Positions 1,261 to 15,069 of a DNA stretch of 15,117 nt are shown one piece after another (position 1 is the first letter of the stretch; the number at the start of each line of letters is the position of its first letter). The translations under genes were made by a program, and so were the position numbers. The notes beneath the pieces were generated by a model. The model saw nothing but the letters and a program-made list of their open reading frames with translations, was not told the DNA's origin and searched no databases. This stretch comes from a virus. The stretch is from the UHGV virus genome UHGV-1727645, one strand, 5' to 3'.

Positions 1261-3977
1261 TGGCACAACTGACAGAAAAACAGAAAGCCTATTCCCGTCA
1301 TCTCGATGAAAAATATGGTTTCCCATCAGGGACGATGGAAACATTAGTTGGCAATGAATCTAGTGGTAACGGAAGTGCCGAGTCACCGAAAGGAGCTAGA
1401 GGATTTGCTCAACTGATGCCCTCAGTAATGAGTGATGCTGGTTATCGTGGAACTGATCCGCGCTCACTGCCATTTGAAAAGCAAATGGATATCGCAGCAA
1501 ACCATCTCAATAAAGGAATGAAGCGATTTGGTGATATAGGTATGGCATTGGCTGGGTATAATTCTGGCTATGCTCGTATTAATGCCGTCAGAAACGGTAA
1601 ATCTACACTGCCAGATGAAACGGCTAATTACGTAAGTAAATTTGCAGATGCCGGAATAATCCCTGATGACAGTGAAATCTTGCAGTTTGCACAAACCAGT
1701 CAACATCGCAATCTTCAGCAGCCTGACTACTCAGAGCTTGATAAAGAAATCTCTCAGGTGGGAGATATTTCTGCATGGGAAGCAAAACGTCAGCAATTTA
1801 AGAACATAGAAGCAGGACTACCAACAGCCAGTTCATGGGAGCAGAAAAGAGCTCAGTTTCTCGCCGATGAAAATGCCGGGGAACCGCAGCAGCAAGTAGC
1901 CAAGTCTAACCTTAATCCTGAGATGGAATATCTTTCGCCAGGACTGAAAGCTGCGCCAGAGCAGATGGCCAGAGGGATTGCTAATATACCGTTTGATGTA
2001 ATGGACGCAGGCGTGGGGGTAGTCAATGCGGCGCAATCAGCCGGAGCATGGGCAGCTCAGAAGCTTGGTGTGGGTGATGGCACATACACGCCCATATCAC
2101 CTGTCTTTCGCCCAGTAGACCAACCTACAGATCCATACGCGCAGGCTGGTGAGCAGCTAGCACCTTACCTTATTACAGGATTAGGTGCAGGAAAGGCAGC
2201 TACCGCAGCTTCTTCAGTTGCCAACGCTCCACGTGCTGAACGTGCGGCCACAAAGGTGGCTAGTATGTTGGCAGAAAACCTGCCAGGTACATTGGTGAAC
2301 GCCCAAAAGAACGGGCAGATCAGCCCAGAAGACCTAGCAAAAGAGACAGGTATTGGCCTAGCAGGATCGCTAGGAGCACGCGCTTTAATAAAGAGCGGAC
2401 AGACAGCCAGTGACGTAATGCGAGATGTATTGCGGAGTAATACAAATCAATCAGGCCATGTGTTAGGGGCAGCAAATACTCTGGAAACCGCCAATGATGT
2501 ATCGAAAGCAGCGCGTTCTGCCGTAGGCCGAGAGCATATCGCATCGCAGGCATCAAACGTCAGAGATGATGTCGCTAAGGCGGCGAAAATCACTGGTATT
2601 AATATCAACACCCTGACGCCTGGAATGCGCTCAGGTAGTCGTGGAATTGCCCAAGCAGAAGGTGTTCTGGCATCAACTCCTGGGAATGTTCAGGATGCTC
2701 ACCTTACGGCCTTCAATGAAATATCCTCAAAGTTGAATAAGCAGTTGTCTGATTTCGGTGCTGAGTCTGGAAGCGCATCAGAAAAAAGCGCAGCAATTAA
2801 AGAGCGCATCATCGCGAGCCTCAGTGATATGAAAACAGCAGAGAATATGGCATGGGCAGAACTGCGAAGCACGATGCCACGCGAAAGGATGAAAATGAGT
2901 AATGGGATGGCTGTCGTCCAAGCAGAAAAAGCAGCCAATGTTCCACTCAGCCCGGAGATGAAACAGTTTCAGGCTGCCAACAACCAAGGTGGCGGCATAA
3001 CCTTCGACGGGATGAAGGCATGGCGTGCTAAGTTTGCTGATGCTGAACAAGCAAACACCCGGGCAGGTAAGGCCAATGCTGCCCGGATTGCCGGAGAAAT
3101 GCGCAGAGCTATCACTGATGACATGCGCATCATGGCTGAAAAAGGAAACTTCCTCACAGAATGGCAGAAAGCTAACGATCTCTCTAAAAGTTACATTATC
3201 GCCAAACAAAATGCCGAATCTGTTTTTGGTCGAGAACTCGCATCAGACGCTATGGTAAGAAAAGGTGCCGATACGCTTAAGGCATCCGCAAACACTGGAA
3301 CGGGAGCTTTTCACCGCCTTATCTCCGCGCTGCCGGAAGCAGAACGCCAACCAGCAATAGCATCTATTCTTCAGCATGTTGTGGCGCAGGGAGAGAAGGG
3401 AGGAATCGGTGAAGAGTCTGGTATCCAGTATTTTGCCAAGCTCATGACCCAGCAGAATGTAAACGCCATCAGTCGTCATGCGCCAGATCTCGGTAGAATG
3501 ATGAAAGAGTTCGGTGTACTCGCTAAAGCCAGCACCAGACCGCAGCGATACGTAGAGCGCACGGGAAGAACAACTGAGGCTCTCAAAACGCTCGATTCAG
3601 GCCTTCCAAAGATCGTCGGTGTGATTATGAACGGAGTTCAACAGTCAGGTGCGATCGCTGGAGGCTTTGGCGGTGGTGTAATTGGTTCGATTAGTGGTTT
3701 GGTTGCTGGTGGCGCACTGAGAAATACTGTGGCTAAGATTGGGGCGACAAGAAGTGGTCGATATGCGATAGAGAAAGCCGTTCAGGAAGCTACAAAAGCA
3801 GTGCGCGCAGGGGCATCACCAGCAGCGATCGCCGCAGCAGAGAAACGATTTTCGGCCAATAAAATTGCCATGAAAGCAATTCGTGATGCCGTTGGGGCTG
3901 AAGAATTCGTGAAACTGACAAGGGCCGGGATTGTAGCTACCCTCAGTGGCATGAAAGATGTTAGCGAATGGGAATAG
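1251..3977 (+). CDS. Large (908 aa) protein with N-terminal family-1 lytic transglycosylase (SLT) domain and C-terminal Gly-rich hydrophobic segment; phage internal-virion/ejection-like or tape-measure-like
   Basis: Translated N-terminus carries the three SLT signature motifs: E-S (E36-S37), G-A-x-G-F-A-Q-L-M (res 48-56) and A-G-Y-N-S-G (res 101-106), about nt 1356-1570. C-terminal segment GAIAGGFGGGVIGSISGLVAGGAL (about nt 3650-3720) looks like a glycine-zipper membrane helix. True start may be ATG 1257 or 1260 (better spacing from AAGGGA at 1246-1251). Confidence 0.8.
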   Translation: MAMMAQLTEKQKAYSRHLDEKYGFPSGTMETLVGNESSGNGSAESPKGARGFAQLMPSVMSDAGYRGTDPRSLPFEKQMDIAANHLNKGMKRFGDIGMALAGYNSGYARINAVRNGKSTLPDETANYVSKFADAGIIPDDSEILQFAQTSQHRNLQQPDYSELDKEISQVGDISAWEAKRQQFKNIEAGLPTASSWEQKRAQFLADENAGEPQQQVAKSNLNPEMEYLSPGLKAAPEQMARGIANIPFDVMDAGVGVVNAAQSAGAWAAQKLGVGDGTYTPISPVFRPVDQPTDPYAQAGEQLAPYLITGLGAGKAATAASSVANAPRAERAATKVASMLAENLPGTLVNAQKNGQISPEDLAKETGIGLAGSLGARALIKSGQTASDVMRDVLRSNTNQSGHVLGAANTLETANDVSKAARSAVGREHIASQASNVRDDVAKAAKITGININTLTPGMRSGSRGIAQAEGVLASTPGNVQDAHLTAFNEISSKLNKQLSDFGAESGSASEKSAAIKERIIASLSDMKTAENMAWAELRSTMPRERMKMSNGMAVVQAEKAANVPLSPEMKQFQAANNQGGGITFDGMKAWRAKFADAEQANTRAGKANAARIAGEMRRAITDDMRIMAEKGNFLTEWQKANDLSKSYIIAKQNAESVFGRELASDAMVRKGADTLKASANTGTGAFHRLISALPEAERQPAIASILQHVVAQGEKGGIGEESGIQYFAKLMTQQNVNAISRHAPDLGRMMKEFGVLAKASTRPQRYVERTGRTTEALKTLDSGLPKIVGVIMNGVQQSGAIAGGFGGGVIGSISGLVAGGALRNTVAKIGATRSGRYAIEKAVQEATKAVRAGASPAAIAAAEKRFSANKIAMKAIRDAVGAEEFVKLTRAGIVATLSGMKDVSEWE

Positions 3978-4127
3978 ACGCTCTAACTAACAAAACCATA
4001 ATAGCCAAGGACGGCATACTGATATTGAGCCAACTATAAAAATTCCATATCACATTACGAGCCTGTGGCTTACATTCGCTTACAGTGATGATAATTTATA
4101 ACCACGCAATTCTTAGGTGAGATTATC

Positions 4128-4826
4128 ATGATTAAAAATCTTCTTTTAATATTATCCCTGTCATTATTGGCTGGATGCGTACAAAAACCGTTAGTAACGG
4201 TCAATGCTTTATCCTCCGGGCAATCTGTCGGCAAGAAGTTCTTGATCATCCCCGCAAGCCAAGAACTTTGGAACACCAAACAGATTGAATACACTCAAAT
4301 AGCTACGGTAGTAGCCGCCAGTTTATCAAGCCAAGGATATACACAAGTTAAAGATGAAAAATTGGCTGACCAGGTAATTCTCTTGAACTTTTTGAGAAGC
4401 GGGGCCATTTCAAATACTCGTAATGTAACCATCCCAATATACGGGCAAACTGGTGTGAGCTCAGCAACAACGTACGGAAACTCGAACACCACGTTCAATA
4501 GTTATGGTGGTGGCTACGGTACAGCTAATACCACTGGAACGGCAACAACAGTTTATACGCCTACTTATGGAATTACTGGCGCGTATAACACAACTGTGAC
4601 GGACACGTTCTACGGCGCAGGGGTGATACTCCAGTCGTTTGATGCCAAGGCTTATCTCAATAATAGGCAGATTAATATGTTATGGAAAGTTGGTAGCTCA
4701 GTCGTCTCGCAACAGTCTGATGGAATTGCTGATTACAAAGGTTTGGCGAGAATAGCCGCTAGCTATGCCGGGAAAAATACAGAAGGTGATATAACTTTTA
4801 ATGTTGACCCTAAAGCACCAAATTAA
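4128..4826 (+). CDS. Lipoprotein (lipobox L-A-G-C, Cys17) with Thr/Gly/Tyr/Asn-rich low-complexity region
   Basis: SD GGTGAG 7 nt upstream of ATG 4128; N-terminus MIKNLLLILSLSLLAGC is a classical signal peptidase II signal with lipobox; residue after Cys is Val (not Asp), suggesting outer-membrane sorting. Residues ~110-165 are low complexity (TTYGNSNTTFNSYGGGYGTANTTGTATT...). Confidence 0.7.
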   Translation: MIKNLLLILSLSLLAGCVQKPLVTVNALSSGQSVGKKFLIIPASQELWNTKQIEYTQIATVVAASLSSQGYTQVKDEKLADQVILLNFLRSGAISNTRNVTIPIYGQTGVSSATTYGNSNTTFNSYGGGYGTANTTGTATTVYTPTYGITGAYNTTVTDTFYGAGVILQSFDAKAYLNNRQINMLWKVGSSVVSQQSDGIADYKGLARIAASYAGKNTEGDITFNVDPKAPN

Positions 4827-4833
4827 CTAATAA

Positions 4834-4849
4834 GCCCGGTACGCCGGGC
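4834..4849 (+). terminator. GC-rich hairpin (GCCCGG-TACG-CCGGGC) 8 nt after lipoprotein stop; putative terminator
   Basis: 6-bp perfect GC stem with 4-nt loop directly downstream of TAA 4824-4826; no strong U-tract follows, so confidence is limited. Confidence 0.4.
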
Positions 4850-5046
4850 ATTCATGCCCCTATTATTCATGAATCGCTTTTTCTGGAAGGTATGCGACAA
4901 ACGTTAAGTGACATTGCCTACACATTCGGGGCGGGATTTCAAATCCGCTCCCAGTTGATGGGGCCGTTACAGTACGCGCATATCCGCTTTATGTGAAACA
5001 GGAAGATTTTTCTGATATCACTGCCACAGCAAAACACCAATTTTGA

Positions 5047-5062
5047 GACAAGTACGCGCGCG
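5047..5062 (+). repeat. Copy A of 3-copy repeat, core GACAAGTACGCGCGCG
   Basis: Exact 16-nt core shared with 5335-5350 and 7089-7104; this copy has an imperfect palindrome (TACGCGCGCGAG). Confidence 0.7.
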
Positions 5063-5072
5063 AGGGGTATCA

Positions 5073-5092
5073 GTTGCAAAAAATTTTGCAAC
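5073..5092. repeat. Near-perfect palindrome GTTGCAAAAAATTTTGCAAC
   Basis: Inverted repeat GTTGCAAAA / TTTTGCAAC read directly; 10 nt downstream of repeat copy A. Confidence 0.5.
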
Positions 5093-5311
5093 TACGTCCG
5101 ACCAGTATGCACACGATGGCGGGGGGGATACCATAAAACTGTTCTCTACATGAGACAGAGTGGTGGTGATGTGTTGATTATCGGCGTATATGCGCACAGG
5201 ACGCGCTATGACGATGTTTTATGCGGGTACACCAATCACATGTATCTGGTGTGATAAATCGCGTTACATGACCTCTCATGTTGTGCTGGTGGTTATCACG
5301 ACGTTCTGAAT

Positions 5312-5370
5312 CTGGCCTTTGCCTGGTATTTTGCGACAAGTACGCGCGCGTAGCATCGAAATAATCGGAT
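5312..5370 (+). repeat. Copy B of 3-copy repeat (about 55 bp, CTGGC..TGGTATTT.G.GACAAGTACGCGCGCG-TAGCA), palindromic core TACGCGCGCGTA at 5341-5352
   Basis: Aligns over about 55 bp with copy C (7063-7120) at roughly 80 percent identity by eye; core is a perfect 12-bp alternating-CG palindrome. Confidence 0.7.
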
Positions 5371-5611
5371 GGCGTATGCTGCTGGTAATATGAAGACCGA
5401 TAGCATTAACCGTAAGGAGAAAGACTTCTCGATAACGGCAAGGGGGCTGAATTGCGAGGCGAGATTAAGCAACTGTCTTGAACGTAAAAATCATGGAGCA
5501 ACATGATGGTACGATTCATTCCATTCTTCGTTCTTTCTGAGCATTGCGTTCAGGCTTAGTCAAAATTAGTGTTGCGAGCGGACCTATTAGTAATTGTTAG
5601 TGCGATGCGCC

Positions 5612-5641
5612 TGTTATGGATTGTTATGGATTGTTATGGTT
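5612..5641 (+). repeat. Tandem decamer array: TGTTATGGAT x2 + TGTTATGGTT
   Basis: Three head-to-tail 10-bp units read directly from sequence; about 260 bp beyond the AlpA-like gene 3' end. Confidence 0.7.
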
Positions 5642-5897
5642 GTGGCAGGCCTGATTAATATCCAGTATGACCACCAGCTATGAGAGGCCACCTCAGTGGT
5701 TCGCAGTTGCAGGTTTGCACTCAGGTTCGCAGGGTTTTGGCTACTTTCACGTGCGAACCTGCAGAATTGCAAAGGACAACTAAGTCTTCTGGCCAACTCC
5801 CGGTTTATGAGCGACACAGTCCGCCTGGCGCATCGTTTTCGTCGAGTGCGCCCATCAGCTTGTCCATGGACTATCCACCACTCGATATTAAAGCTAA

Positions 5898-6083
5898 TCA
5901 TTGGTTGCCAGCCCGCGAATCAAGTTTGTTCTGGATCCAAGCTTCAACCTCCTCAAGCGACCATCTAGCTGATCTACCAATTTTAACTGGCTGTGGAAAC
6001 GTGCCCGTCTTAACCCATGAGTAGATTGCCGTTTTCTTGAAGCCCGTTCTGAGCATGACTTCGCTTAATTTGATAAGGCGCAT
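5898..6083 (-). CDS. alpA: AlpA-family phage/integrative-element transcriptional regulator (excisionase-like HTH), 61 aa
   Basis: Translated product MRLIKLSEVMLRTGFKKTAIYSWVKTGTFPQPVKIGRSARWSLEEVEAWI matches the AlpA (Phage_AlpA) pattern: HTH, G-x-FP-x-P-x-K-I-G, R-W-x-x-x-E-V-x-x-W. Strong SD AGGAG 5 nt upstream of ATG on the minus strand. Confidence 0.85.
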   Translation of the reverse strand: MRLIKLSEVMLRTGFKKTAIYSWVKTGTFPQPVKIGRSARWSLEEVEAWIQNKLDSRAGNQ

Positions 6084-6132
6084 AGAGGCTCCTCTGCTTT
6101 AGATTAAGCATAGTGACAATCTGGCTTTGGGT

Positions 6133-6167
6133 GGTATCCAAAAGCGAGGTATCCATGTTGGTATCCA
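6133..6167. promoter_or_regulatory. Three direct repeats of GGTATCCA (6133, 6148, 6160) in the alpA / small-protein divergent intergenic region; candidate operator
   Basis: Exact 8-mers at 15- and 12-bp spacing, 50-85 bp upstream of the alpA start codon. Confidence 0.45.
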
Positions 6168-6304
6168 CCAAAACGCTGTTTACCAAAAAAGTTACCACCG
6201 GAACAGGACATTTTGAGCTGTAACTTAACACATAGCATATGGAGTTCACGCATAGACTTCACGCACAACGGCTCTGGCCAGTGAAGAATCACCCTGGCTA
6301 GCAA

Positions 6305-6310
6305 TATAAT
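6305..6310 (+). promoter_or_regulatory. Consensus -10 hexamer TATAAT upstream of small-protein gene 6336..6527
   Basis: Perfect TATAAT 26 bp upstream of ATG 6336, leaving a leader that contains the SD AGAGGGG; -35 region is weak (TGAAGA). Confidence 0.3.
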
Positions 6311-6335
6311 GCCGATCACCATCAGAGGGGAATCC

Positions 6336-6527
6336 ATGACACCACGAGAAATCGAGCTGCTGACCATTGCCAAGCTGGAGCATGGCGGCCACCAGCTCAG
6401 CCCGGCAGAACTGCGGGAATTAAGGCGCCAGCTGGCAGAGGGCCCTGTAATAGCCAGGCGGTACCGCGAAATGATGACCAGCCCCGCATATCGCTGGAGC
6501 AAACCAGCGCCGCTCCGTGCGCGGTGA
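6336..6527 (+). CDS. Small conserved protein (63 aa), paralog of 7338..7523; possibly Icd-like (tentative)
   Basis: Start chosen at ATG 6336 (SD AGAGGGG 5 nt upstream) rather than ORF-track ATG 6309 because the paralog starts with the same MTPREI..LLTIAKLEHGGHQL sequence. The Icd-like label is from memory of annotations of similar small genes next to alpA/perC, not verified. Confidence 0.65.
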   Translation: MTPREIELLTIAKLEHGGHQLSPAELRELRRQLAEGPVIARRYREMMTSPAYRWSKPAPLRAR

Positions 6528-6600
6528 GCAGCACCTAACCAGCACTAGACAAGCCCTGTGCTGGTGGATGTCCCTCATAATTAGCGGTTTTTAAACGGCG

Positions 6601-6723
6601 TGTTGGTTCACGGCCTCTTTTTGTTGGTTCAAAAATGGGGTGTGTTGGTTCACTTTTTGCGAATAATTCTTTTAAAAACAATACTCTTTACAAATTGAAC
6701 CAACTGAACCAACTGAACCAACA
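6601..6723. repeat. Iteron-like array: TGTTGGTTCA x3 direct at 21-bp phasing (6601, 6622, 6643) plus three tandem inverted copies TGAACCAAC (6696-6723)
   Basis: Read directly; the inverted units are the exact reverse complement of the direct units; array sits immediately upstream of the PerC-like gene. Confidence 0.75.
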
Positions 6724-6758
6724 CCTTTTTGCTTATCTATATAATCTGAGAGGCAGAA

Positions 6759-7040
6759 ATGATAAGGGACAGGAAAGCTGAAGAGCTGGAGTCAAAAGGG
6801 CTATACCGGAGAGCTGCCGCACGATGGATGGAAGTCATGCTGTTATGCACCGAGGACGATGATCGGGAATGGATAAAGCGCCGCCGTGAAACGTGTCTGG
6901 AGAACGTGAAGCGCCCGCCCGTGAAGGTTGAGGAATTTGGCGACCTGCATAAAGCTGTTACCGAAACGCAACACCGCATGGGGATAGCGCAACCGAACGG
7001 TAACGCCTTCCGGTTAAATGGCGGCAAGAGGCAAAGGTAG
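6759..7040 (+). CDS. PerC-family transcriptional regulator (93 aa)
   Basis: N-terminus MIRDRKAEELESKGLYRRAAARWMEVM resembles the PerC/Pch family as I remember it; SD GAGAGG 5 nt upstream of ATG 6759. Family call from memory. Confidence 0.6.
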   Translation: MIRDRKAEELESKGLYRRAAARWMEVMLLCTEDDDREWIKRRRETCLENVKRPPVKVEEFGDLHKAVTETQHRMGIAQPNGNAFRLNGGKRQR

Positions 7041-7044
7041 ACCA

Positions 7045-7066
7045 CCAGAGGGAAATCATCCTCTGG
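7045..7066 (+). terminator. Hairpin CCAGAGG-(8 nt)-CCTCTGG 4 nt after PerC-like stop
   Basis: 7-bp perfect stem, followed by a moderately T-containing stretch that merges into repeat copy C. Confidence 0.4.
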
Positions 7067-7120
7067 CTGGCGGTTTCTGGTATTTCGGGACAAGTACGCG
7101 CGCGCGTAGCACCCAATCGG
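7063..7120 (+). repeat. Copy C of 3-copy repeat, palindromic core TACGCGCGCGCGTA at 7095-7108
   Basis: Same orientation as copies A and B; lies immediately after the hairpin that follows the PerC-like gene; 14-bp perfect palindrome. Confidence 0.7.
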
Positions 7121-7337
7121 TGAGGAAATAGCGGCGACCTGAATGGTCAAAATCACAACGCAGCTATCCCCGTAAGCAGCGCTTAACGGAATAGCAGTAA
7201 CCTGAATCCAGTGGGGAGGGGGTAGTCAAATCTCTACAGCCCTGACTATCCGGGACTGCCCGCCCCATCGTTTTTTTATACCCGCGAAAAATGAAATTTA
7301 ATCCGGGCGTGTTTCATCCTTCCAGAGGGTATGACGT

Positions 7338-7523
7338 ATGACACCACGCGAAATAGCCTTATTGACCATCGCCAAACTTGAGCACGGAGGCCACCAGCTT
7401 ACACAGGCAGATCAACGGGAGATAGAACGATCAGTTAATGCCGATATAGCCCGGCGCGACAGGTTCCGCGAAATGATGCGAGCACCTGCCTACCAGTGGA
7501 AGAAGCCAGCGCCGCGCAGGTAG
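7338..7523 (+). CDS. Small conserved protein (61 aa), paralog of 6336..6527; possibly Icd-like (tentative)
   Basis: About 65 percent identical by eye to the 6336 product; SD GAGGG upstream of the ATG. Confidence 0.65.
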   Translation: MTPREIALLTIAKLEHGGHQLTQADQREIERSVNADIARRDRFREMMRAPAYQWKKPAPRR

Positions 7524-7643
7524 ATATGGGATTATTCCACATGTAACTTATGCGTATTAAGCAAATTTCCTTTATTCACCTTTACAGAATTGTGAGTACG
7601 TCAGTATCGTTATCCTTCCGATTCGCATTTATTCAGGATTTGC

Positions 7644-8186
7644 ATGTACCAGCTAAAGATAACCATCCGAGACAGCAAACCACCTATATGGCGGCGTGTG
7701 CTGGTTCCAGAGCAAATCCCCTTTAGTAAACTTCATGCCGTGATCCAGTTAGCTTTTGGCTGGAATGACGAACACCTGTATATGTTCGAGAAAGGGCGTA
7801 AAGGTGATCCAGGTAGCGAGTATCGCGTATGGGGTGAGGATGAAAGCATGGGTAACGCGGCAATCACGCCACTATGGGCGGCGCTCCAGAATGAGGGTGA
7901 CAAGCTGGTTTACACGTATGACTTTGGCGACTGGTGGGATTGCGTCATTGTGCTGGAGAAGCAAACACACGATACGAGTAATCAGCCCATTAGCTGCCTG
8001 CGTGGGAAAGGCACCACCCCGGCGGAAAACTCAGGCGGCTTGCATGGTTACAATGAATTGCTATTACAGGCCAGAGAGTCTGATAATCCTGAGCAGGCCG
8101 AGATCCACAATTTCCTGATGCTGGATATTGAACGCCGGGTTTACGACCTGAGCCGCATCAACGACAGATTGCAGGCTATTAACTGA
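7644..8186 (+). CDS. pRiA4b ORF3-family protein (PF07929-like), 180 aa
   Basis: N-terminus YQLKITIRDSKPPIWRRVLVPEQIPFSKLHAVIQLAFGWNDEHLYMF and later YDFGDWWD match the characteristic pRiA4b ORF-3 motifs (Y-x-L-K, P-P-I-W-R-R, L-H-x-x-I-Q-x-A-x-G-W, H-L-x-x-F, YDFGD-W). SD CAGGA 5 nt upstream. Confidence 0.8.
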   Translation: MYQLKITIRDSKPPIWRRVLVPEQIPFSKLHAVIQLAFGWNDEHLYMFEKGRKGDPGSEYRVWGEDESMGNAAITPLWAALQNEGDKLVYTYDFGDWWDCVIVLEKQTHDTSNQPISCLRGKGTTPAENSGGLHGYNELLLQARESDNPEQAEIHNFLMLDIERRVYDLSRINDRLQAIN

Positions 8187-8538
8187 CCCGCATGTATTCA
8201 CCTGATATTGCGTTGTCAGCGCCGCCAGTATCGCGCATAACAGCGCACTGACCGGGTAAACCGTAGCGCACGACCGTTGCGTTAGTATCACCGCCACGCT
8301 TTACCTGCCGCGATTCATACACTGTCACCCGCTCAAGCAGTCCACCAGCAACCATGCTTTCCAGTGTGCGCCGGGTTGATTCGAGCTGGTGACGCTTATC
8401 GAACGACACCATGCCATGAAGCAGGTAGGCCACACCCGACACATCGAACGGCGGCGCACCAATCTCACCAGTCACCCATTCGAGGTTATCCGGTTCAAAG
8501 TAGCTAAGTATCTCTTTTTTGCGACTGGTCATTCTCAT
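8179..8538 (-). CDS. Hypothetical protein (119 aa), convergent with and overlapping the pRiA4b ORF3 gene by 8 bp
   Basis: Uninterrupted ORF with plausible composition and SD-like AAGGAA upstream; no motif recognised. Confidence 0.55.
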   Translation of the reverse strand: MRMTSRKKEILSYFEPDNLEWVTGEIGAPPFDVSGVAYLLHGMVSFDKRHQLESTRRTLESMVAGGLLERVTVYESRQVKRGGDTNATVVRYGLPGQCAVMRDTGGADNAISGEYMRVS

Positions 8539-9065
8539 GGCTGGCTGATTCCTTATTGTGGGATAGCACTATCATACAATAAGTGGGTTAAAGGGAGAGC
8601 GTTACCGCCTGATATGCTGTATGAATAACAACCAAATTTCAGGTGCGGAAAAAGATATGGGGGTACTTTTGGGGGTATCTATAAAAAATGAACAATAAAA
8701 AAGGCAACAAAAACAAAGCTTATCGCCTATGTGTATTGTTCCTATTATCGCACCATTTAAATCAATAAGTTAGATAAGTGTGTGCCTAGATTTTCTTGCA
8801 GTTTGTCATTTGGGTACACACAGGGGACACAAAGCACAAAAGTGTGTACATTTGGTTTTGGTGTCCTCGTGTTTACTTCTTACCGTTGATATAAATTCAC
8901 TTTCTTGTTGACAAAAATTGTAAGCATGTCGAATGGCAATGTAGACATCGCTATTAGTTGTTTGGTAAGGTATTTATTGAGTGTAAACATAAAAACTTTA
9001 TCAATATATGCTCAGACTGATGAGGTCAGTATTGATACTGATGTTTTCAAATTTTAGGCCATAAA

Positions 9066-9662
9066 ATGGCTGTCATTCCAATGTCTTACTCCCCTGCTAC
9101 TGTAGCTCGTCGTTTTTCGATACTGGATGGAGTAACTATTCAGGGTGTACTTTACCAGATCATCTGGGATCCAAAGACTCCGTTCGCTGCGGTAATCGAA
9201 GCTGCACCTTCTGTTATTGATGGTGATATTCGCCATAAGGTTGTTGCCACTCTGGAGCTTCAGCGTCGTTCACAGCTTGAAGGGGTGTTTGTCCGGAAAT
9301 TCTGGGAAGAACAGGACGTTGCTCAGATTGAAGGGATTGTTGTCGATGGTGCTGTACGTGATGTTAGCCTTGCTACGTTTGTTTATGAAACAATAGCCAC
9401 AAAAGCAGGCGTTATACTATTAAGTGATAACGAGCAATATGAAGGAGGTAAAGCCCTCTGGCAGCATATAGCGCGTCGTTCAACGAATCTTAAGGTGTTT
9501 ATCTTAGATACAGATTCCGCACGGTATTATCCGTTTGATGGTGATCGGATCTGCTATGATGGGGAAAGTATTCCTGAATCAGAAATCTGGAGTGAACATC
9601 CTGATCGAAACAAACACGGTGTTGTTCTTGTGGCCGAATCTGTTAATGGAAAAGCCGCATAA
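9066..9662 (+). CDS. Hypothetical protein (198 aa), function unknown
   Basis: Longest ORF in this interval, preceded by a 527-bp AT-rich intergenic region; weak SD; no motif recognised. Confidence 0.55.
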   Translation: MAVIPMSYSPATVARRFSILDGVTIQGVLYQIIWDPKTPFAAVIEAAPSVIDGDIRHKVVATLELQRRSQLEGVFVRKFWEEQDVAQIEGIVVDGAVRDVSLATFVYETIATKAGVILLSDNEQYEGGKALWQHIARRSTNLKVFILDTDSARYYPFDGDRICYDGESIPESEIWSEHPDRNKHGVVLVAESVNGKAA

Positions 9663-9721
9663 TTTGCCAGCCGCATCGTGTTCTTGGAACTCTGACAGAC
9701 CTGAGAGTTGGCAGAATAAAC

Positions 9722-9747
9722 AGGGGATAACAGAACGGTTATCCCCT
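9722..9747. terminator. Perfect 10-bp stem hairpin (AGGGGATAAC-agaacg-GTTATCCCCT) between convergent genes; likely bidirectional terminator
   Basis: Lies between the stop of the 198-aa gene (9662) and the stop of the minus-strand gene (9755); on the minus strand it is followed by GTTTATTCTG. Confidence 0.55.
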
Positions 9748-9754
9748 CAGTACT

Positions 9755-10807
9755 CTACTGCTCGATCAAACATTTGCTCCATAAAGGTTGGATCGCATGT
9801 CGATCTTTGCTGTAGGGGAATCTTTTATTTTTTTTCTTCTGTTCCATCAGTAATGTGTCGATTTCGTTGTTGACAATGCGCGTCACAGCGTGACGATAAC
9901 GGTTTAGCGATGTATCACTGATATCCTGAGGCAGGCATAAACTGGTATCGGTTTTGATGCGTTCATTTATGCCATCTTTAACTTTCCATTTCAGACCATC
10001 CGGAACCCCTTCCTGCAAATCATAGGCTTTCAGTCCCGCAAGTCGTACAACAACGTCAATCTTCTCTGTTCGTATTTTTTTATTACTTACCAACAAAACT
10101 TTATTAGTTTCATACCATTTTTCAAATGATTCCAGCCGTTTTACTGCATTTATGATGTTATTCCGAATTCCAGAAAATTCAATAGAATCTGTGTGTTTCA
10201 TTTTCTTTTCTTCAGCATTAGGGGCTATTCCTGGATAGTCAATATCATGCTTTACTGACTCCAGATATGCATATTGCAGGCAGCCTGAAAGATGAATTGC
10301 GGCATCCTGCAGAGTATTAGTGCGAATCAATCTAAGGAGTTCATCTCGTTGTATGGTTATCTGACAATAATCCCTTTCCCATGCGGTCGTATTCTCGGTT
10401 TTTTCATCTTTATCCGGAGTAACTGTTGCGAATTTCCATGTGTACTGGATGAAATCTGTTGGTTTAAAATACGCCATGCTTGTTTTTACCCAACCACAGA
10501 TTTCAGCTGCATAAATATGGACATAAATATTGTACATTGTCTGTATTTCACGCTGACTGGCGACTGAAAACATATTTTTTACGAATTCTGTACATCCGAT
10601 TATCGATAGTCGTTCTCTCAGTCTGTGCACATCTTCAGTATCTGACTTCCTGCAGTCCCAGGGCCATTTGTTCTTATTCTCAAAACAGGAAAGCCATTCT
10701 GGAATATTTTGCTTATTCTGGTAGAATTCGTTAACCGCCAGACCAATGGTTATGGCAAGTATTGTTGATTCATCTATTTCATGATACTGCTTCAGGTGTG
10801 CCAGCAA
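9755..10807 (-). CDS. Hypothetical Lys/Asn/Ile-rich protein; C-terminal 350 codons of a ~543-codon reading frame interrupted by one in-frame TAA (probable pseudogene or base-call error)
   Basis: ORF-track start is TTG 10807 with no SD; the frame is open upstream through 10808-11002 (65 codons, no stop, no start codon) to the TAA at 11003-11005 that ends the 127-aa ORF, which is in the same frame. Confidence 0.6.
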   Translation of the reverse strand: MLAHLKQYHEIDESTILAITIGLAVNEFYQNKQNIPEWLSCFENKNKWPWDCRKSDTEDVHRLRERLSIIGCTEFVKNMFSVASQREIQTMYNIYVHIYAAEICGWVKTSMAYFKPTDFIQYTWKFATVTPDKDEKTENTTAWERDYCQITIQRDELLRLIRTNTLQDAAIHLSGCLQYAYLESVKHDIDYPGIAPNAEEKKMKHTDSIEFSGIRNNIINAVKRLESFEKWYETNKVLLVSNKKIRTEKIDVVVRLAGLKAYDLQEGVPDGLKWKVKDGINERIKTDTSLCLPQDISDTSLNRYRHAVTRIVNNEIDTLLMEQKKKNKRFPYSKDRHAIQPLWSKCLIEQ

Positions 10808-11002
10808 CTCTGAGGTGCAGGAGTGCGCAACAGACAGATCCTGATGGCAATACCCCTGCCGGGCTTCTGCTGGAATTGGTGAACTCCAAGCTTTACATTC
10901 AGTCAGAATATTAAATAAATCATCTCCTACAAACTTTGCCAGTTCAGGTGTTTTCCAGGTTCTCGGTCCTGGGCTGATAAAGGTTGATGTTGTCTGTACC
11001 TC

Positions 11003-11386
11003 TTACATCGCCCCCCAGGTTTTCAGACTGATATTTCCTTCATCAAAACCATTGTATAAATGGCACATCACATTAAGCGCATCTGTAAGAGCAGAAGGAG
11101 TGGGTTGGGGGGAGGTAGACTCTTCAATAGTAAGCTTTGGTTCTTCAGCGCTTCTTTGTTCTCTAAAGATTCTCAGGAGCTCTGTATTGGCACGTAATGC
11201 AGAGAGTACTCTGTGCTGTTCTTCAAACCAGGGGCGATATTCTGGATCCTGATATAGTTGACGTGCTTTAAAAATGAGCAAAAGGATTTGTTCGGAAACC
11301 GCCTCGTATATGCCAGGGAAAGGGTGGAGTTCGCCGGATAAAACACGATCATACTGATACTTTTGTTGCATTGTCCGAGTTACCAT
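11003..11386 (-). CDS. N-terminal 127 codons of the same interrupted ~543-codon reading frame; function unknown
   Basis: Ends at TAA (plus 11003-11005), in frame with the downstream 350-codon ORF; upstream is a 690-bp AT-rich divergent intergenic region. Confidence 0.55.
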   Translation of the reverse strand: MVTRTMQQKYQYDRVLSGELHPFPGIYEAVSEQILLLIFKARQLYQDPEYRPWFEEQHRVLSALRANTELLRIFREQRSAEEPKLTIEESTSPQPTPSALTDALNVMCHLYNGFDEGNISLKTWGAM

Positions 11387-11689
11387 GATGTCAGAAGTTT
11401 CTGCTTGCTACATATTGGTCCGCTGTCAGACAGAATCGATGTTGTCCACTGAAATGAAACGTTAATCCTGAGCCAGCCGCTGATTACGTGGATAGCTTGT
11501 GTACATTTGTTTATATCCTGAGATTTTATACATTATTTACGATAATTTTCTCCTGATTGTGATTGTCTCCGTCAGTTACCTCTGCGTCTTCTGTATAAGC
11601 GTATTTGCTTCATTTTCCGATCATTCGTAGCCTGCTTCTGTCTGTTCAGCAACAGATTGTCTTTTCCTCCGCTTGTTGTAGCTTATTTT

Positions 11690-11705
11690 TGTGATGATTA
11701 TCACA
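11690..11705. promoter_or_regulatory. Perfect CRP-type consensus TGTGA-N6-TCACA (TGTGATGATTATCACA)
   Basis: Both half-sites match the cAMP receptor protein consensus exactly, with the canonical 6-bp spacer, flanked by AT-rich DNA, in the divergent intergenic region between the interrupted gene and the second alpA-like gene. Confidence 0.45.
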
Positions 11706-12076
11706 AATTAGATGGAAATATTTCACCTTCCTGCGACTCCTCCATGCTTTGTTTGAATTTTACATGGATTTATTTATATATCCCAACCTAATTTTAGTCA
11801 ACAAAAATCGTCATAATGGATTTTTAATATTAATTTTTGTTTTTATTGGTCGCGGCTTGTTTTTATTTGGTTCTATATGTCTTTATTTTTTCTATTAAAA
11901 GCCATTTTAACATTGCAATTCAGTATTTTGACCTATAAAAATCATAGTATTACATTTTATTTGTAAGGTGTTGACTGGATGAATGATAGTGACTTTCACT
12001 CATTGTTTATCCGGGAAACTTAGTCATTTCATGCTCATGCCGGAAATAAAAAGTATTGATATATCAGGAGGGTAGT

Positions 12077-12304
12077 ATGTGGCTTCCATTAACAGATGAA
12101 CAGCGTCTGGTCATTTTGAAAGCTTATGGGATTGAATGCGACAGACTGGTACGTGAAAAGGAACGATATGAGATCACGTCAATTTCTCGTACACAAGCGT
12201 GGAAACTTGAACGGGAGGGAACATTTCCACCACGTAAGTCTATCGGAAAGAAATCTTGCGGATGGTTGTTAAGTGACCTTCTCTGCTGGATACAGACCAG
12301 ATGA
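12077..12304 (+). CDS. AlpA-family regulator with about 30-aa N-terminal extension (75 aa from ATG 12077)
   Basis: C-terminal half ITSISRTQAWKLEREGTFPPRKSIGKKSCGWLLSDLLCWI fits the AlpA HTH pattern; SD AGGAGG 5 nt before ATG 12077 (ORF-track start TTG 12056 lies upstream of the SD). Confidence 0.7.
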   Translation: MWLPLTDEQRLVILKAYGIECDRLVREKERYEITSISRTQAWKLEREGTFPPRKSIGKKSCGWLLSDLLCWIQTR

Positions 12305-12334
12305 ACTGTCTGTATTTTCAGTATATCCAGTCTG

Positions 12335-12377
12335 TATAGCAGCTATTGTTGCTATTGTAGCGGAAATAGCTGCTATA
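12335..12377. promoter_or_regulatory. Inverted repeat TATAGCAGCTATT-(17 nt)-AATAGCTGCTATA in the leader of the YfjI-like gene fragment
   Basis: 13-bp perfect arms; a weaker AGCAGC...GCTGCT counterpart is seen at the equivalent position upstream of the full copy (about 12805-12850). Confidence 0.45.
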
Positions 12378-12409
12378 ACCGAAAGTTATTACGAAAAAAG
12401 GAAATATTT

Positions 12410-12637
12410 ATGTCTTACATCAAACCGGATACTCCGCATCCAGTATATGCGCAACCATCAATGACTGGAAATGCAATAATTGAAACTCAACACAATGAAA
12501 AAGCATCTCTGGCTATGACTACAACATCATTATTAACAGCGATGTCAATTGCCTGTCAGAATCAGATTGAGGTGTGCAACCCCGGAAATTTACGTGGGCC
12601 CGTTAATATTTACACTATGGTTCTGGCTGATTCCTGA
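12410..12637 (+). pseudogene. Truncated duplicate of the 5' end of the YfjI/DUF3987-like gene (75 codons)
   Basis: Product aligns by eye with the N-terminus of the 12886 gene (NAIIETQ..LAM..TS.LTA.SIACQNQI.VC.PGNLRGPVN.Y...LADS), then hits a stop where the full copy continues (GATTCCTGAGAAAGG versus GATTCTGGTGAAAGG). Confidence 0.6.
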
Positions 12638-12885
12638 GAAAGGTAAAAGACCGGGGGGAAGGTGTTAGTGAAATAATTTTAGGAGGTGTTAAGAATGAGA
12701 AACATGAATGATATTTCGTGGTAAATAACACAGTATGAACTGAATTAACCTTATCGGTTTATTAAACATCAGATCTACAGATATTCTGTATTTCTCAGAA
12801 CATTAGGTCTGAACAGCAGCTATTTCGCTATTATAGCGGGAGTTGCTGCTACTTTACTAACCCATTAATGAAAAGAGAGGCTTTT

Positions 12886-13890
12886 ATGTGCTTACTTGCA
12901 CCAGAAAATCCTTATCCGATATATGCACTACCACCGCTGGTGAGAAATGCAATAATTGAAACTCAAAAAAATACACAGGCACCTTTGGCTATGGTGGCGA
13001 CATCCGCATTAACAGCGATCTCAATTGCCTGTCAGAATCAGATTGACGTGTGCAGACCTGGAAATTTACGTGGGCCTGTTAATCTTTACTCTCTGATTCT
13101 GGCTGATTCTGGTGAAAGGAAAACGACCGTGGATAAAGTGTTTATGAAAGCATTTTATCTCAGCGATGAAGCCCTCGCGGAAGAATACGCGAAACTGGTT
13201 GAGAATTACAGCACAGAAAAGGCAATATGGGAGCAAAAACAAAAAGCGCTGGAATCAAAATTTCATAAAGAGATTCGTGCCGGTAAAGATTACAAGGCAA
13301 CAGAATCAGAGCTTGAAACGCATCTGAATAAGTCTCCTGTTCCGCCGCAGATACGTCGAACAATTTTTAATGAGACAACTATAGAGGGAATGTTAAAATA
13401 TTACTCCGATAGCAATCGTTCTTTTGCTCTTGTATCCAGTGAAGGGGGGGTAATTTTTGACAGCCGGGCCATGAGTAAACTGGGAATTATTAACACTTTG
13501 TGGGATGGAGGTTCTCTTTTCATCGACAGGAAATCATCTCCCGGAATTAATTTGAAGGAGCCAAGACTGACGATGTCGGCGATGATTCAGCCTGATGTTT
13601 ACCACAAAGGTTTTTGTACGCGAAAAAAAGAACTTGTGAAAACGTCAGGACATCATGCAAGGTTTTTGATGTGTCAACCAACATCAACGCAGGGGACAAG
13701 GATAATAACCGGAGATAATTATTCATCACAGTATCAGGATTTGTTTGAACAGAGGATCAATGAGCTTATTGATGAAAGTCTGGCGATGAGTGGTGAACGA
13801 CGTTGCCTTCACTTTTCTCCTCAGGCTGCCAGAATCTGGACGGATTATTACAATGATGTGGAATCGAGCTGGGGGGATTGGGGCCTTTAA
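12886..13890 (+). CDS. YfjI/DUF3987-like protein, N-terminal part (frameshifted gene); family name tentative
   Basis: Start set at ATG 12886 (SD AGAGAGG 5 nt upstream; matches the start of the duplicated fragment) rather than ORF-track ATG 12868. The gene follows an AlpA gene, as in CP4-57-type elements. Frame ends at TAA 13888-13890, just after a G6 run. Confidence 0.65.
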   Translation: MCLLAPENPYPIYALPPLVRNAIIETQKNTQAPLAMVATSALTAISIACQNQIDVCRPGNLRGPVNLYSLILADSGERKTTVDKVFMKAFYLSDEALAEEYAKLVENYSTEKAIWEQKQKALESKFHKEIRAGKDYKATESELETHLNKSPVPPQIRRTIFNETTIEGMLKYYSDSNRSFALVSSEGGVIFDSRAMSKLGIINTLWDGGSLFIDRKSSPGINLKEPRLTMSAMIQPDVYHKGFCTRKKELVKTSGHHARFLMCQPTSTQGTRIITGDNYSSQYQDLFEQRINELIDESLAMSGERRCLHFSPQAARIWTDYYNDVESSWGDWGL

Positions 13891-14318
13891 GACATTGCCG
13901 GGAATATGCTGCTAAAAATGCAGAGTATATGGCAAGACTGGCAGGACTTATTTACCATTCGAGCGGTGAGGAGGGGGAGATTTCCCCTTACATTGCAGAA
14001 ATGGCGAGAGAATTAGCAATATGGTACGGTAATGAGTATGTGCGGTTGTCTAATCCGTTAACTTTTGACAACCCTGCCCTGACCGTACCTGTGCGACTCA
14101 TTCCAGAGGAGCTTGAACTTTTCAACTGGATAAAAAGCTATTGCATTGAGAAGGGGATCCTCTGTATGAAAAAAAATGACATTTTACAGCGTGGTCCGAA
14201 CCGTTTCCGGAAAAAGGATAAAATCAACTGGTTACTGGATTTACTGTATGAACAAAACAGAGTTGTACCGGTTATTGAGGGAAAAACGTTGTGTGTCGCA
14301 CCTAACTTTGACCTCTGA
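13878..14318 (+). CDS. C-terminal part of the same YfjI/DUF3987-like gene in the +1 frame (146 codons)
   Basis: Overlaps the upstream ORF by 13 nt; one extra G in the G6 run at 13871-13876 would fuse both ORFs into one frame of about 486 codons. Confidence 0.6.
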   Translation: MGPLRHCREYAAKNAEYMARLAGLIYHSSGEEGEISPYIAEMARELAIWYGNEYVRLSNPLTFDNPALTVPVRLIPEELELFNWIKSYCIEKGILCMKKNDILQRGPNRFRKKDKINWLLDLLYEQNRVVPVIEGKTLCVAPNFDL

Positions 14319-14342
14319 ACAACTTAATCGTTGACTAACATA

Positions 14343-14373
14343 TAGTCTCCTCTGCTACTTGCGGAGGAGACTA
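14343..14373 (+). terminator. Hairpin TAGTCTCCTC-(11 nt)-GAGGAGACTA about 25 nt after the YfjI-like stop
   Basis: 10-bp perfect stem; no clear U-tract, so the terminator assignment is tentative. Confidence 0.4.
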
Positions 14374-14579
14374 ATGCCTTTACCATGTCAGCGTTGTATT
14401 AGAAAACTCTGGTACAGGTCAGTCAGTAAATATAACTGGTGTAACCACTATTTACTATTGGATATCCTGTTGCTCAGGATATTGTCGGCTTTAGTCTGAG
14501 GTGAGGTGGGGCCTTCATTGTTTTCGTGTTCAATAAATAATTTAGGTTAATTAGTATTATTAATGGGAGTTATGGTATT

Positions 14580-15043: not shown

Positions 15044-15069
15044 TATTACCTCATTGTAATGAGGTAATA
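15044..15069. repeat. 26-bp palindrome TATTACCTCATT-GT-AATGAGGTAATA
   Basis: 12-bp perfect inverted arms with 2-bp centre, read directly. Confidence 0.6.

What the first reader, a model, noticed from the sequence alone, without database searches (positions are those of the whole stretch)
5898..12304. Two AlpA-family genes in opposite orientations with no integrase in 15 kb
AlpA-type regulators normally control an adjacent P4-type integrase and are followed by yfjI-like or primase genes. Here alpA at 5898-6083 (minus) is followed only by about 1 kb of repeat-rich non-coding DNA, while the second alpA-like gene at 12077 (plus, with a 30-aa N-terminal extension) is followed by a decayed and a frameshifted yfjI-like gene. 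This looks like a composite of two degraded integrative elements, or a PICI/P4-like satellite, that has lost or relocated its integrase.
Basis: partly seen in the sequence, partly recalled or inferred. Interest (0 to 1): 0.45.

Follow-up and report, generated by a model that had tools for sequence, protein, structure and literature searches.

The report
Known PICI EcCIMP1 beside integrase-less island
The two AlpA-type genes belong to two different mobile elements sitting side by side at the E. coli tRNA-Thr (thrW) site. The left one is the right-hand end of the published phage satellite EcCIMP1, whose integrase lies outside the window, so the "missing integrase" is mostly an effect of where the window was cut.

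Summary
Both genes are AlpA-family (Pfam E about 2e-13), the window holds no integrase, about 1 kb after the first gene has no gene, and the second is followed by a yfjI fragment and a frameshifted yfjI.

Window 1-8749 is the right 8.75 kb of EcCIMP1, a 19,963-bp phage-inducible chromosomal island described by Pick et al. (ISME J 2025). It differs from the E. coli MP1 copy at 7 positions. Its attR, a partial thrW 3' end, is at 8740-8758.

The alpA at 5898-6083 is identical to the published "alpA_1". That gene is known to sit at the far end on the opposite strand, to be dispensable for island excision, and to act as an Xis-like helper of phage Kapi1. In the complete copies I inspected, EcCIMP1's integrase and its canonical alpA lie 10-11 kb left of the window.

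Window 8759-15117 is the start of a separate CP4-57-type thrW island. Its relatives at other chromosomal sites carry int-198aa-543aa-alpA-yfjI-yfjJ. Here the integrase is absent, and homology to those relatives begins 4 nt before the 198-aa gene.

Verdict: a tandem array of one known, apparently intact satellite and one integrase-less island. Already known; low interest.

The parts
1..1260 (+). EcCIMP1 P22 gp20-like DNA ejection protein. The gene starts about 60 nt left of the window.
   Evidence: PHROG 2534/917, 'released from the phage upon host infection'. RefSeq 'phage DNA ejection protein' and Pfam Inj_translocase in identical copies.
1257..3977 (+). EcCIMP1 906-aa protein: an SLT lytic transglycosylase fused to a P22 gp16-like DNA transfer protein.
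   Evidence: PHROG 770 E=4e-120. Pfam SLT + Phage_P22_gp16 in identical copies. RefSeq WP_000968283.1.
4128..4826 (+). 232-aa protein in the variable cargo slot. Its N-terminus looks like a lipoprotein signal peptide with a Cys (by eye). It is followed by a bidirectional hairpin at 4834-4859.
   Evidence: No family hits. Replaced by 129/145-aa genes or an Abi gene in other EcCIMP1-like copies. Hairpin.
4928..5897 (.). Conserved block of about 970 nt downstream of alpA_1 with no detectable gene. It contains the 28-nt repeats (5035, 5323) and a 10-nt unit repeated 3.3 times (5612-5643).
   Evidence: 97-99% identical in all 10 alpA_1-bearing contexts, with a breakpoint at 4928. No convincing ORF, Rfam hit or strong fold signal.
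5466..5562 (-). Relic of about 95 nt from the right end of an IS110-family element (the last codons of the transposase gene plus the terminus).
   Evidence: 94-96% match to the 3' end of genes annotated as IS110-family transposases in most of the 2,571 matching E. coli genomes.
5898..6083 (-). alpA_1 (EcCIMP1_023): the second, Xis-like AlpA-family gene of EcCIMP1.
   Evidence: Pfam Phage_AlpA E=1.9e-13. DNA and protein identical to the MP1 copy. Best solved relative is TorI excisionase 1Z4H, E=1e-5. Function from PMC11773190.
6336..6527 (+). 63-aa small gene, divergent from alpA_1. It is a paralogue of 7338-7523.
   Evidence: 62% aa identity to the 61-aa gene (tblastx E=6e-22). Called as a 63-aa gene in several assemblies.
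6602..6722 (.). Iteron-like cluster just upstream of perC: 3 x GTTGGTTCA (21-nt spacing), an AT-rich spacer, then 3 x TGAACCAAC (9-nt spacing).
   Evidence: An inverted twin lies directly after the primase gene of EcCIMP1 (L021 11062-11182).
6759..7040 (+). PerC-family regulator (EcCIMP1_025).
   Evidence: PHROG 994 E=1e-37. Pfam PerC in identical copies. Shown to repress LEE1 in C. rodentium (PMC11773190).
7338..7523 (+). 61-aa small gene.
   Evidence: PHROG 7271. RefSeq WP_000188903.1.
7644..8186 (+). pRiA4b ORF-3 family protein.
   Evidence: Pfam PRiA4_ORF3 E=1e-42.
8179..8538 (-). 119-aa hypothetical protein, the last gene of EcCIMP1.
   Evidence: RefSeq WP_001350215.1. No family hit.
8740..8758 (+). 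attR of EcCIMP1: a partial 3' end of thrW (TCCTATTATC-GCACCATT, one G missing).
   Evidence: Alignment with thrW/attL and with the EcCIMP1-free locus. Unique in the window. The published att core is TCCTATTATC.
8759..9061 (.). AT-rich DNA that follows thrW in EcCIMP1-free genomes. It occupies the place where related islands carry their integrase.
   Evidence: Identical to the DNA after thrW in strain 205. Homology to integrase-bearing relatives starts only at 9062.
9066..9662 (+). 198-aa conserved hypothetical, first gene of island 2.
   Evidence: PHROG 7522 E=1e-126. Lies directly after the integrase in relatives.
9755..11386 (-). 543-aa hypothetical gene, broken by a nonsense codon at 11003-11005.
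   Evidence: Intact in strain 205; a single G>A change at 11005. The same allele occurs in gut-metagenome contigs.
12077..12304 (+). alpA2: the AlpA-family gene of island 2 (CP4-57-type alpA-yfjI module).
   Evidence: Pfam E=2e-13. PHROG 2790 E=8e-23. dN/dS 0.15 against the O103:H2 orthologue.
12410..12637 (+). 5' fragment of a second, diverged yfjI (75 codons): a recombination scar.
   Evidence: DUF3987 positions 2-45. 12309-12681 is about 77% identical to 12785-13157. Absent from the O103:H2 island.
12886..14318 (+). yfjI (DUF3987), frameshifted by a 1-nt deletion at 13866/7.
   Evidence: Pfam DUF3987 E=4e-71. Intact 477 aa in strain 205.

Best explanation
The window spans the junction of two unrelated integrative elements stacked at the thrW (tRNA-Thr) attachment site of E. 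coli.

**Left element (1-8749).** This is the right 44% of the phage-inducible chromosomal island EcCIMP1. The full element runs thrW | int - alpA - antirepressor - ash - TOPRIM/DUF927 primase - P22-like ejection genes - cargo - alpA_1 (opposite strand) - perC - pRiA4 ORF3 | attR.
- Its integrase and its master regulator alpA are simply outside the window.
- The alpA in the window is alpA_1. It is an excisionase-like paralogue that does not drive excision of the island. According to published genetics, it can substitute for the Xis of the helper phage Kapi1.

**Right element (8759-15117).** This is the thrW-proximal end of a CP4-57-type genomic island. Its ancestral order was int - 198aa - 543aa - alpA - yfjI - yfjJ.
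- The integrase has been lost at this locus.
- alpA2 is therefore an orphan regulator/excisionase still under purifying selection. It is followed by a recombination scar (a yfjI 5' fragment) and a yfjI copy carrying a 1-nt deletion.

**Shown:** the identity to EcCIMP1, the att repeat, the gene orders in relatives, and the absence of an integrase.
**Taken from the literature:** the function of alpA_1.
**Inferred:** that the source genome carries the left half of EcCIMP1, and what alpA2 does.
For: 1. Window 1-8760 differs from the MP1 EcCIMP1 copy at 9 positions, 7 of them inside the element. alpA_1 is identical.
2. The paper reports a 19,963-bp element at tRNA-Thr with att core TCCTATTATC. It has two AlpA genes; alpA_1 lies at the far end on the opposite strand, is dispensable for excision and transfer, and supports Kapi1 excision in a delta-xis background (PMC11773190).
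3. The thrW 3' end (TCCTATTATCGGCACCATT) recurs at window 8740-8758. The DNA after it is what follows thrW in EcCIMP1-free strain 205.
4. Strain 200164 shows the whole tandem: proA - thrW - int - ... - pRiA4 - 119aa | 198aa - 543aa - alpA2 - yfjI' - yfjI - yfjJ. The junction is complete in 11 complete genomes.
5. The exact alpA_1 protein sits in the same backbone in all 10 contexts read.
6. Integrase-bearing relatives of island 2 have a 438-aa integrase about 130 nt upstream of the 198-aa gene. Window homology starts at 9062.
7. tblastn finds no integrase remnant in the window.
Against: - The source of the window is not among the complete genomes. No record covers 80% or more of it.
- The closest contigs are gut-metagenome scaffolds that end in the ejection genes. 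So the presence of int and alpA upstream in this particular genome is inferred, not seen.
- Some genomes carry internally deleted EcCIMP1-like remnants, for example strain 2 HS-C.
- The function of alpA_1 rests on one paper and on a phenotype seen only in a delta-xis background.
- alpA2 has not been studied.
Confidence: 0.9

Rival explanations
1. One reading: one composite or satellite element that has lost or relocated its integrase, with both alpA genes being leftover integrase regulators.
For: There is no integrase in the 15 kb. Island 2 does lack the integrase that its relatives have.
Against: - An att repeat splits the region into two elements.
- The left one is 99.9% identical to an experimentally mobile PICI. 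That element's integrase lies outside the window in the complete copies I inspected.
- alpA_1 is not the integrase-linked regulator.
Confidence: 0.05
2. In the source genome the EcCIMP1 copy is itself truncated or internally deleted left of the window. It would then be a non-mobile remnant, even though its right end is intact.
For: Deleted EcCIMP1-like remnants exist at the same junction (strain 2 HS-C). 103 complete genomes hold 80% or more of the right end, but only 52 hold 80% or more of the whole element. The matching metagenome contigs stop in the ejection genes.
Against: - All 10 contexts of the exact alpA_1 protein that reach far enough show the ejection genes and the primase.
- Even the deleted remnant keeps int and alpA.
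- The window part has no disruptions: it differs from the functional copy at 7 positions in 8.75 kb.
Confidence: 0.12
3. alpA_1 is the remnant of an xis-int pair, and the roughly 1-kb 'non-coding' block downstream is the decayed integrase.
For: alpA_1 is Xis/TorI-like. An ORF at 5614-5901 overlaps its stop codon by ATGA. The block is conserved.
Against: - tblastn with four tyrosine integrases gives only E=0.48, and on the wrong strand.
- The stop-free pieces show no protein-like sequence.
- No phage homology was found.
- The block holds an IS110 relic instead.
Confidence: 0.05

Closest known systems
EcCIMP1, phage-inducible chromosomal island of E. coli MP1 (Pick, Stadel & Raivio, ISME J 2025; GenBank OR778291 / CP139039)
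   Same: Window 1-8749 equals EcCIMP1 positions 11215-19963, with 7 mismatches. It shares the thrW site, the att core, alpA_1, perC, the pRiA4 ORF3 gene and the ejection genes.
   Different: Only the right 44% is in the window. In MP1 the neighbouring island is a roughly 7-kb MarR/vat remnant; here it is a CP4-57-type alpA-yfjI island.
CP4-57 cryptic prophage of E. coli K-12 (ssrA | intA - yfjH - alpA - yfjI - yfjJ ...). AlpA activates intA and excision (own knowledge: Kirby, Trempy & Gottesman 1994).
   Same: Island 2 has the alpA - yfjI(DUF3987) - yfjJ/Gp2 order. Its integrase-bearing relatives have int upstream.
   Different: There is no integrase at this locus. Two extra genes (198 aa, 543 aa) lie between the int position and alpA. 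alpA2 has a conserved N-terminal extension of about 21 aa. The site is thrW, not ssrA.
CP4-6 / thrW islands of E. coli (K-12 thrW ... intF - ptwF; PAI-thrW of ExPEC)
   Same: Same attachment locus between proA and yagP/pao. As in K-12 (own knowledge), the only integrase of the roughly 45-kb island in strain 205 sits at the far, pao-proximal end. thrW is a known integration hotspot (PMC7545054).
   Different: The cargo differs between strains. The window shows only the first 6.4 kb of the island.
TorI / KplE1 excisionase (PDB 1Z4H) and phage Kapi1 Xis
   Same: alpA_1 is the same small winged-helix excisionase type: phmmer E=1e-5 over 57 residues. Genetic complementation of Kapi1 delta-xis is reported.
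   Different: The similarity is low. alpA_1 has no adjacent integrase and is not needed by its own element.

Membership tests
AlpA family (Pfam PF05930) | Match to the Phage_AlpA HTH profile above the gathering score | tested here: met
   Both genes score about 50 bits against a cutoff of 21.
EcCIMP1 (specific PICI) | Near-identity of sequence and gene order to the reference element | tested here: met
   7 mismatches in 8,749 nt against MP1, with the same genes in the same order.
EcCIMP1 (specific PICI) | Flanking direct repeat with core TCCTATTATC at thrW | tested here: met
   attR is at 8740-8758. attL lies outside the window and was seen only in relatives.
PICI (Gram-negative type) | Integrase next to the att site, followed by the alpA master regulator and a primase/replicase | not testable with these tools
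   These genes lie left of the window. They are present in the complete near-identical copies, but the source contig could not be recovered.
PICI (Gram-negative type) | Helper-phage-dependent excision, packaging and transfer | not testable with these tools
   Shown experimentally for the MP1 copy with phage Kapi1 (PMC11773190), not for this copy.
P4-like satellite | Core genes psu, delta, sid, epsilon and an alpha primase-helicase | tested here: not met
   No such families appear among the window ORFs scanned (Pfam and PHROG) or in the RefSeq annotation of complete copies.
CP4-57-type island (int-alpA-yfjI-yfjJ module) | alpA immediately followed by a DUF3987/YfjI gene | tested here: met
   alpA2 at 12077-12304, then the yfjI fragment and yfjI. 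yfjJ/Gp2 follows in relatives.
CP4-57-type island (int-alpA-yfjI-yfjJ module) | P4-type tyrosine integrase at the tRNA-proximal end, upstream of alpA | tested here: not met
   No integrase lies between attR (8758) and alpA2. Relatives at other sites have it about 130 nt before the 198-aa gene, and homology starts at 9062.

The most novel reading that the evidence does not exclude
The iteron-like array just upstream of perC (6602-6722) is an inverted twin of the array directly after the EcCIMP1 primase gene. It may be a functional second binding site for the island's replication initiator. In that case it would be either a second origin or a replication-coupled switch for the accessory alpA_1/perC end. 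The conserved, gene-less 970-nt block behind alpA_1 would then be part of that regulatory region, for example a long 3' UTR or a non-coding RNA. The EcCIMP1 paper mentions neither feature.
Probability: 0.2. Interest if true: 0.4.

Novelty: already known. Interest (0 to 1): 0.12.

Why it matters
It matters mainly as a caution. An "orphan" AlpA gene in a short window or metagenome contig does not mean an element has lost its integrase. Here one alpA is the published second, Xis-like copy of a known satellite, and the other belongs to a neighbouring island. The result gives exact coordinates for the EcCIMP1 attR and for the deletion point of the island-2 integrase. It also shows that thrW can hold two or three stacked elements. 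The only possibly new observations are side issues: the duplicated iteron array and the conserved gene-less block.

Tried and rejected
- **Recovering the source contig failed.**
  - An exact 42-mer across the yfjI frameshift found nothing in genome contigs.
  - The 340-aa frameshift product is not on record.
  - The 127-aa nonsense product found gut-metagenome scaffolds that are 99.9% identical, but they end inside the ejection genes.
- **A decayed gene or RNA in 4827-5897 was not found.**
  - Stop-free pieces from the six frames look non-protein.
  - Distant blastn against phages gave only a spurious 72-nt hit.
  - Rfam at E of 1 or less gave nothing relevant.
  - Sliding-window fold z-scores were never below -2.8.
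  - The consensus scan found no promoter there.
- **Defence-system and NCBIfam profiles** for the 198-aa, 543-aa, 232-aa, 119-aa and YfjI proteins gave no hits.
- **Close phage homologues of alpA_1:** none above 50% identity.
- **A third att copy in the window:** none.
- **P4-like satellite:** rejected, because no P4 core genes are present.


Full report
**1. The observation**

Both AlpA calls hold.
- The ORF at 5898-6083 (-) encodes 61 aa and matches Pfam Phage_AlpA at E=1.9e-13.
- The ORF ending at 12304 (+) matches the same family at E=2.1e-13.
- RefSeq starts the second gene at 12077, giving 75 aa. The AlpA domain then begins at about residue 22, so the extension is about 21 aa, not 30.
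- That extension is a real, conserved part of the protein. PHROG 2790 aligns residues 2-73. It is kept in an orthologue that is 80% identical at the DNA level, with dN/dS 0.15.

The window contains no tRNA. None of the ORFs I scanned hits an integrase family. tblastn with four relevant tyrosine integrases finds nothing better than E=0.48.

The 1,071 nt between the 232-aa gene and alpA (4827-5897) carry no believable ORF, no Rfam match and no RefSeq gene. They hold two copies of a 28-nt repeat and a short 10-nt tandem. "Repeat-rich" is therefore an overstatement.

Downstream of the second alpA there is a 75-codon DUF3987 fragment (12410-12637). After it comes a yfjI gene split by a 1-nt deletion at 13866/7, relative to an intact 477-aa copy.

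**2. What the left part is**

Megablast against complete E. coli genomes splits the window in two.
- Window 1-8772 matches many chromosomes at 99.8-99.9%.
- Window 8740-15117 matches a different set at up to 99.6%.
- No record holds both at 80% or more.

One of the 99.9% matches is E. coli MP1 (H9). A literature search led to Pick, Stadel & Raivio (ISME J 2025, PMC11773190). They describe EcCIMP1 in MP1 as a 19,963-bp phage-inducible chromosomal island. It is integrated in tRNA-Thr between proA and yagU and is flanked by the repeat TCCTATTATC. Phage Kapi1 induces and transduces it.

Mapping their coordinates onto the MP1 locus shows that window 1-8749 equals EcCIMP1 positions 11215-19963. There are 7 mismatches, and the alpA gene is identical.

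The paper notes that EcCIMP1 has two AlpA-family genes.
- alpA (EcCIMP1_003) lies just after the integrase. It is required for excision and transfer.
[quoted passage not shown] It is dispensable for the island, resembles Kapi1 Xis, and supports Kapi1 production in a delta-xis lysogen.

My own check agrees with that family placement. The best solved relative of the window protein is the KplE1 excisionase TorI (1Z4H, E=1e-5).

The exact alpA_1 protein is very common (12,839 index blocks). In all 10 contexts read it sits in the same backbone: primase - DUF2824 - P22 gp7 - gp20 - gp16 - variable slot - alpA_1 (opposite strand) - 63aa - PerC - 61aa - PRiA4_ORF3 - 119aa.

**3. The boundary**

I aligned thrW and its flank with the window junction and with the loci of strains 200164, 205 and EH09-18-41.
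- The thrW 3' end is TCCTATTATCGGCACCATT.
- It recurs at window 8740-8758 with one G missing.
- The DNA after the repeat is exactly what follows thrW in strain 205, which lacks EcCIMP1.

This repeat is therefore the attR of EcCIMP1.

Strain 200164 shows the full arrangement: proA - thrW - int - alpA - ... - primase - ejection genes - ... - PerC - PRiA4 - 119aa | 198aa - 543aa - alpA2 - yfjI' - yfjI - yfjJ. In that copy the alpA_1 slot holds an Abi gene and IS421.

The junction itself (8450-9060) is complete in 11 of 5,426 complete genomes. One of them, strain 2 HS-C, has three stacked elements and an internally deleted EcCIMP1-like remnant that still keeps int and alpA.

**4. What the right part is**

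In strain 205 the island starts directly at thrW and runs about 45 kb to the yagP/pao side.
- It begins 198aa - 543aa(-) - alpA2 - yfjI' - yfjI - yagK/yfjJ.
- Sugar-utilisation cargo follows.
- It ends with a module of GTPase, Ag43-like protein, antirestriction protein, RadC and the YeeU/CbtA pair.
- Its only integrase is at the far end. From my own knowledge, this resembles intF/ptwF of K-12 CP4-6.

Relatives at other chromosomal sites show the ancestral left end.
- In O103:H2 12009 and YZ22PE106 (98% identical around alpA2), a 438-aa integrase sits about 130 nt upstream of the 198-aa gene.
- Homology of the window to these loci begins at 9062, 4 nt before that gene.
- At thrW the integrase and its upstream DNA are therefore absent. 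Their place is taken by 303 nt of AT-rich thrW-proximal sequence (8759-9061).

The "decayed yfjI" is a recombination scar.
- Window 12309-12681 is about 77% identical to 12785-13157.
- The alpA2 + fragment part aligns at 80% to the O103 island.
- The full yfjI aligns at 93% to the same island.

Two diverged alpA-yfjI modules were therefore joined. The scar is present in 337 complete genomes.

The window lineage adds two lesions. One is a nonsense codon in the 543-aa gene (G>A at 11005), shared with gut-metagenome contigs. The other is the yfjI frameshift. A near-identical metagenome scaffold loses alignment at exactly the frameshift site, so an assembly artefact cannot be excluded.

**5. How it works**

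Shown:
- There are two elements in tandem.
- The left one is sequence-identical to a PICI that is known to be mobile.
- The right one lacks its integrase.

From the literature:
- EcCIMP1 excision needs its own int and the canonical alpA, both outside the window.
- alpA_1 acts as a spare recombination directionality factor for the helper phage.
- The PerC-family protein represses LEE1 in C. rodentium.

Inferred:
- alpA2 is an orphan AlpA-type regulator/excisionase, kept by selection (dN/dS 0.15).
- It may control the yfjI operon, or cross-talk with integrases elsewhere, as the MP1 work showed for other AlpA paralogues.

**6. What remains uncertain**

The source sequence could not be recovered. 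The presence of the left half of EcCIMP1 in this genome is therefore an inference from near-identical copies.

Only 52 complete genomes hold 80% or more of the whole element, against 103 for the right end. A left-truncated copy is therefore possible, at roughly 10%.

**7. Comparison and novelty**

The finding is explained by a published element plus an ordinary integrase-less tRNA island. It is not a P4-like satellite, because it has no P4 core genes.

The unusual position of alpA_1 is already described and functionally probed. Nothing categorically new attaches to the finding as stated.

Two side observations are not in the paper.
- **An inverted twin of the putative origin iterons just upstream of perC.** The array is 3 x GTTGGTTCA, an AT-rich spacer, then 3 x TGAACCAAC at 6602-6722. 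Its twin lies right after the primase gene.
- **A 970-nt gene-less block behind alpA_1.** It is conserved in all alpA_1 variants and contains a relic of an IS110-family end.

**Verdict.** The finding is already known. Interest is 0.12.

Noticed in passing
window 6602-6722; twin at L021 11062-11182 (EcCIMP1, just after the primase gene): An iteron-like array (3 x GTTGGTTCA at 21-nt spacing, an AT-rich spacer, 3 x TGAACCAAC at 9-nt spacing) lies immediately upstream of perC. It is an inverted duplicate of the array directly downstream of the TOPRIM/DUF927 primase gene. Both copies are conserved in all EcCIMP1-like variants read. The EcCIMP1 paper does not mention an origin or iterons.
   Followed up: partly
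window 4928-5897: The roughly 970 nt downstream of alpA_1 are 97-99% conserved in every alpA_1-bearing variant, with a sharp breakpoint at 4928. I could detect no gene, RNA family or strong structure. A hairpin at 4834-4849 on the minus strand could terminate a long alpA_1 transcript.
   Followed up: partly
window 5466-5562: A segment of about 95 nt is 94-96% identical to the 3' end of IS110-family transposase genes plus the element terminus, as found in most of the 2,571 matching E. coli genomes. It is an IS relic inside the non-coding block. The 200164 variant loses homology nearby, at 5412.
   Followed up: partly
window 5035-5062, 5323-5360, 7077-7116: There are three copies of a 28-38-nt repeat (CTGGTATTTTGCGACAAGTACGCGCGCG...). 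Two lie in the block behind alpA_1 and one lies just after the perC stop codon. Its function is unknown.
   Followed up: no
window 6336-6527 and 7338-7523: Two paralogous small genes (63 and 61 aa, 62% identical) flank perC, 1,002 nt apart. RefSeq leaves the first one unannotated in strains EH09-18-41 and MP1, but other assemblies call it.
   Followed up: partly
window 5614-5901 (-): A 95-codon ORF overlaps the alpA_1 stop codon by ATGA. At least one assembly calls it (111 aa in L013). Its Arg/Trp-rich sequence has no homologues among the integrases I tested, and it looks spurious.
   Followed up: partly
window 11003-11005: A nonsense codon (G>A at 11005) splits the 543-aa hypothetical gene of island 2. 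The same allele and the same tandem arrangement occur in human-gut metagenome scaffolds (L004-L009). The window therefore probably comes from such an assembly.
   Followed up: yes
window 13866/13867: The yfjI frameshift is the loss of one A in GAATCGA[A]GCTGG. This is not a long homopolymer. A 99.9%-identical metagenome scaffold (L004) loses alignment between 13801 and 13867, so an assembly artefact is possible.
   Followed up: partly
window 12309-12681 vs 12785-13157: This is a partial tandem duplication at about 77% identity. alpA2 plus the yfjI 5' fragment come from a lineage 80% identical to the O103:H2 island, while the full yfjI is 93% identical to it. It is a recombination joint between two diverged alpA-yfjI modules, and it is present in 337 complete genomes.
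   Followed up: yes
window 1-3977 and loci L010-L019: EcCIMP1 carries a P22-like set of ejection genes (DUF2824/gp14-like, gp7, gp20, gp16). In this variant the gp16-like protein is 906 aa with an N-terminal SLT transglycosylase domain. Other variants have a 701-aa form without SLT.
   Followed up: no
window 3978-4927: The slot between the gp16-like gene and the conserved block is variable cargo. Here it holds a 232-aa putative lipoprotein with no family hit. Other copies hold 129/145-aa genes, or an Abi protein plus IS421.
   Followed up: partly
window 8750; L026 (strain 2 HS-C): The attR copy lacks one G of the thrW 3' end, in the window and in strains 200164 and EH09-18-41. The thrW locus can hold three stacked elements, each with its own integrase or integrase fragment.
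   Followed up: partly
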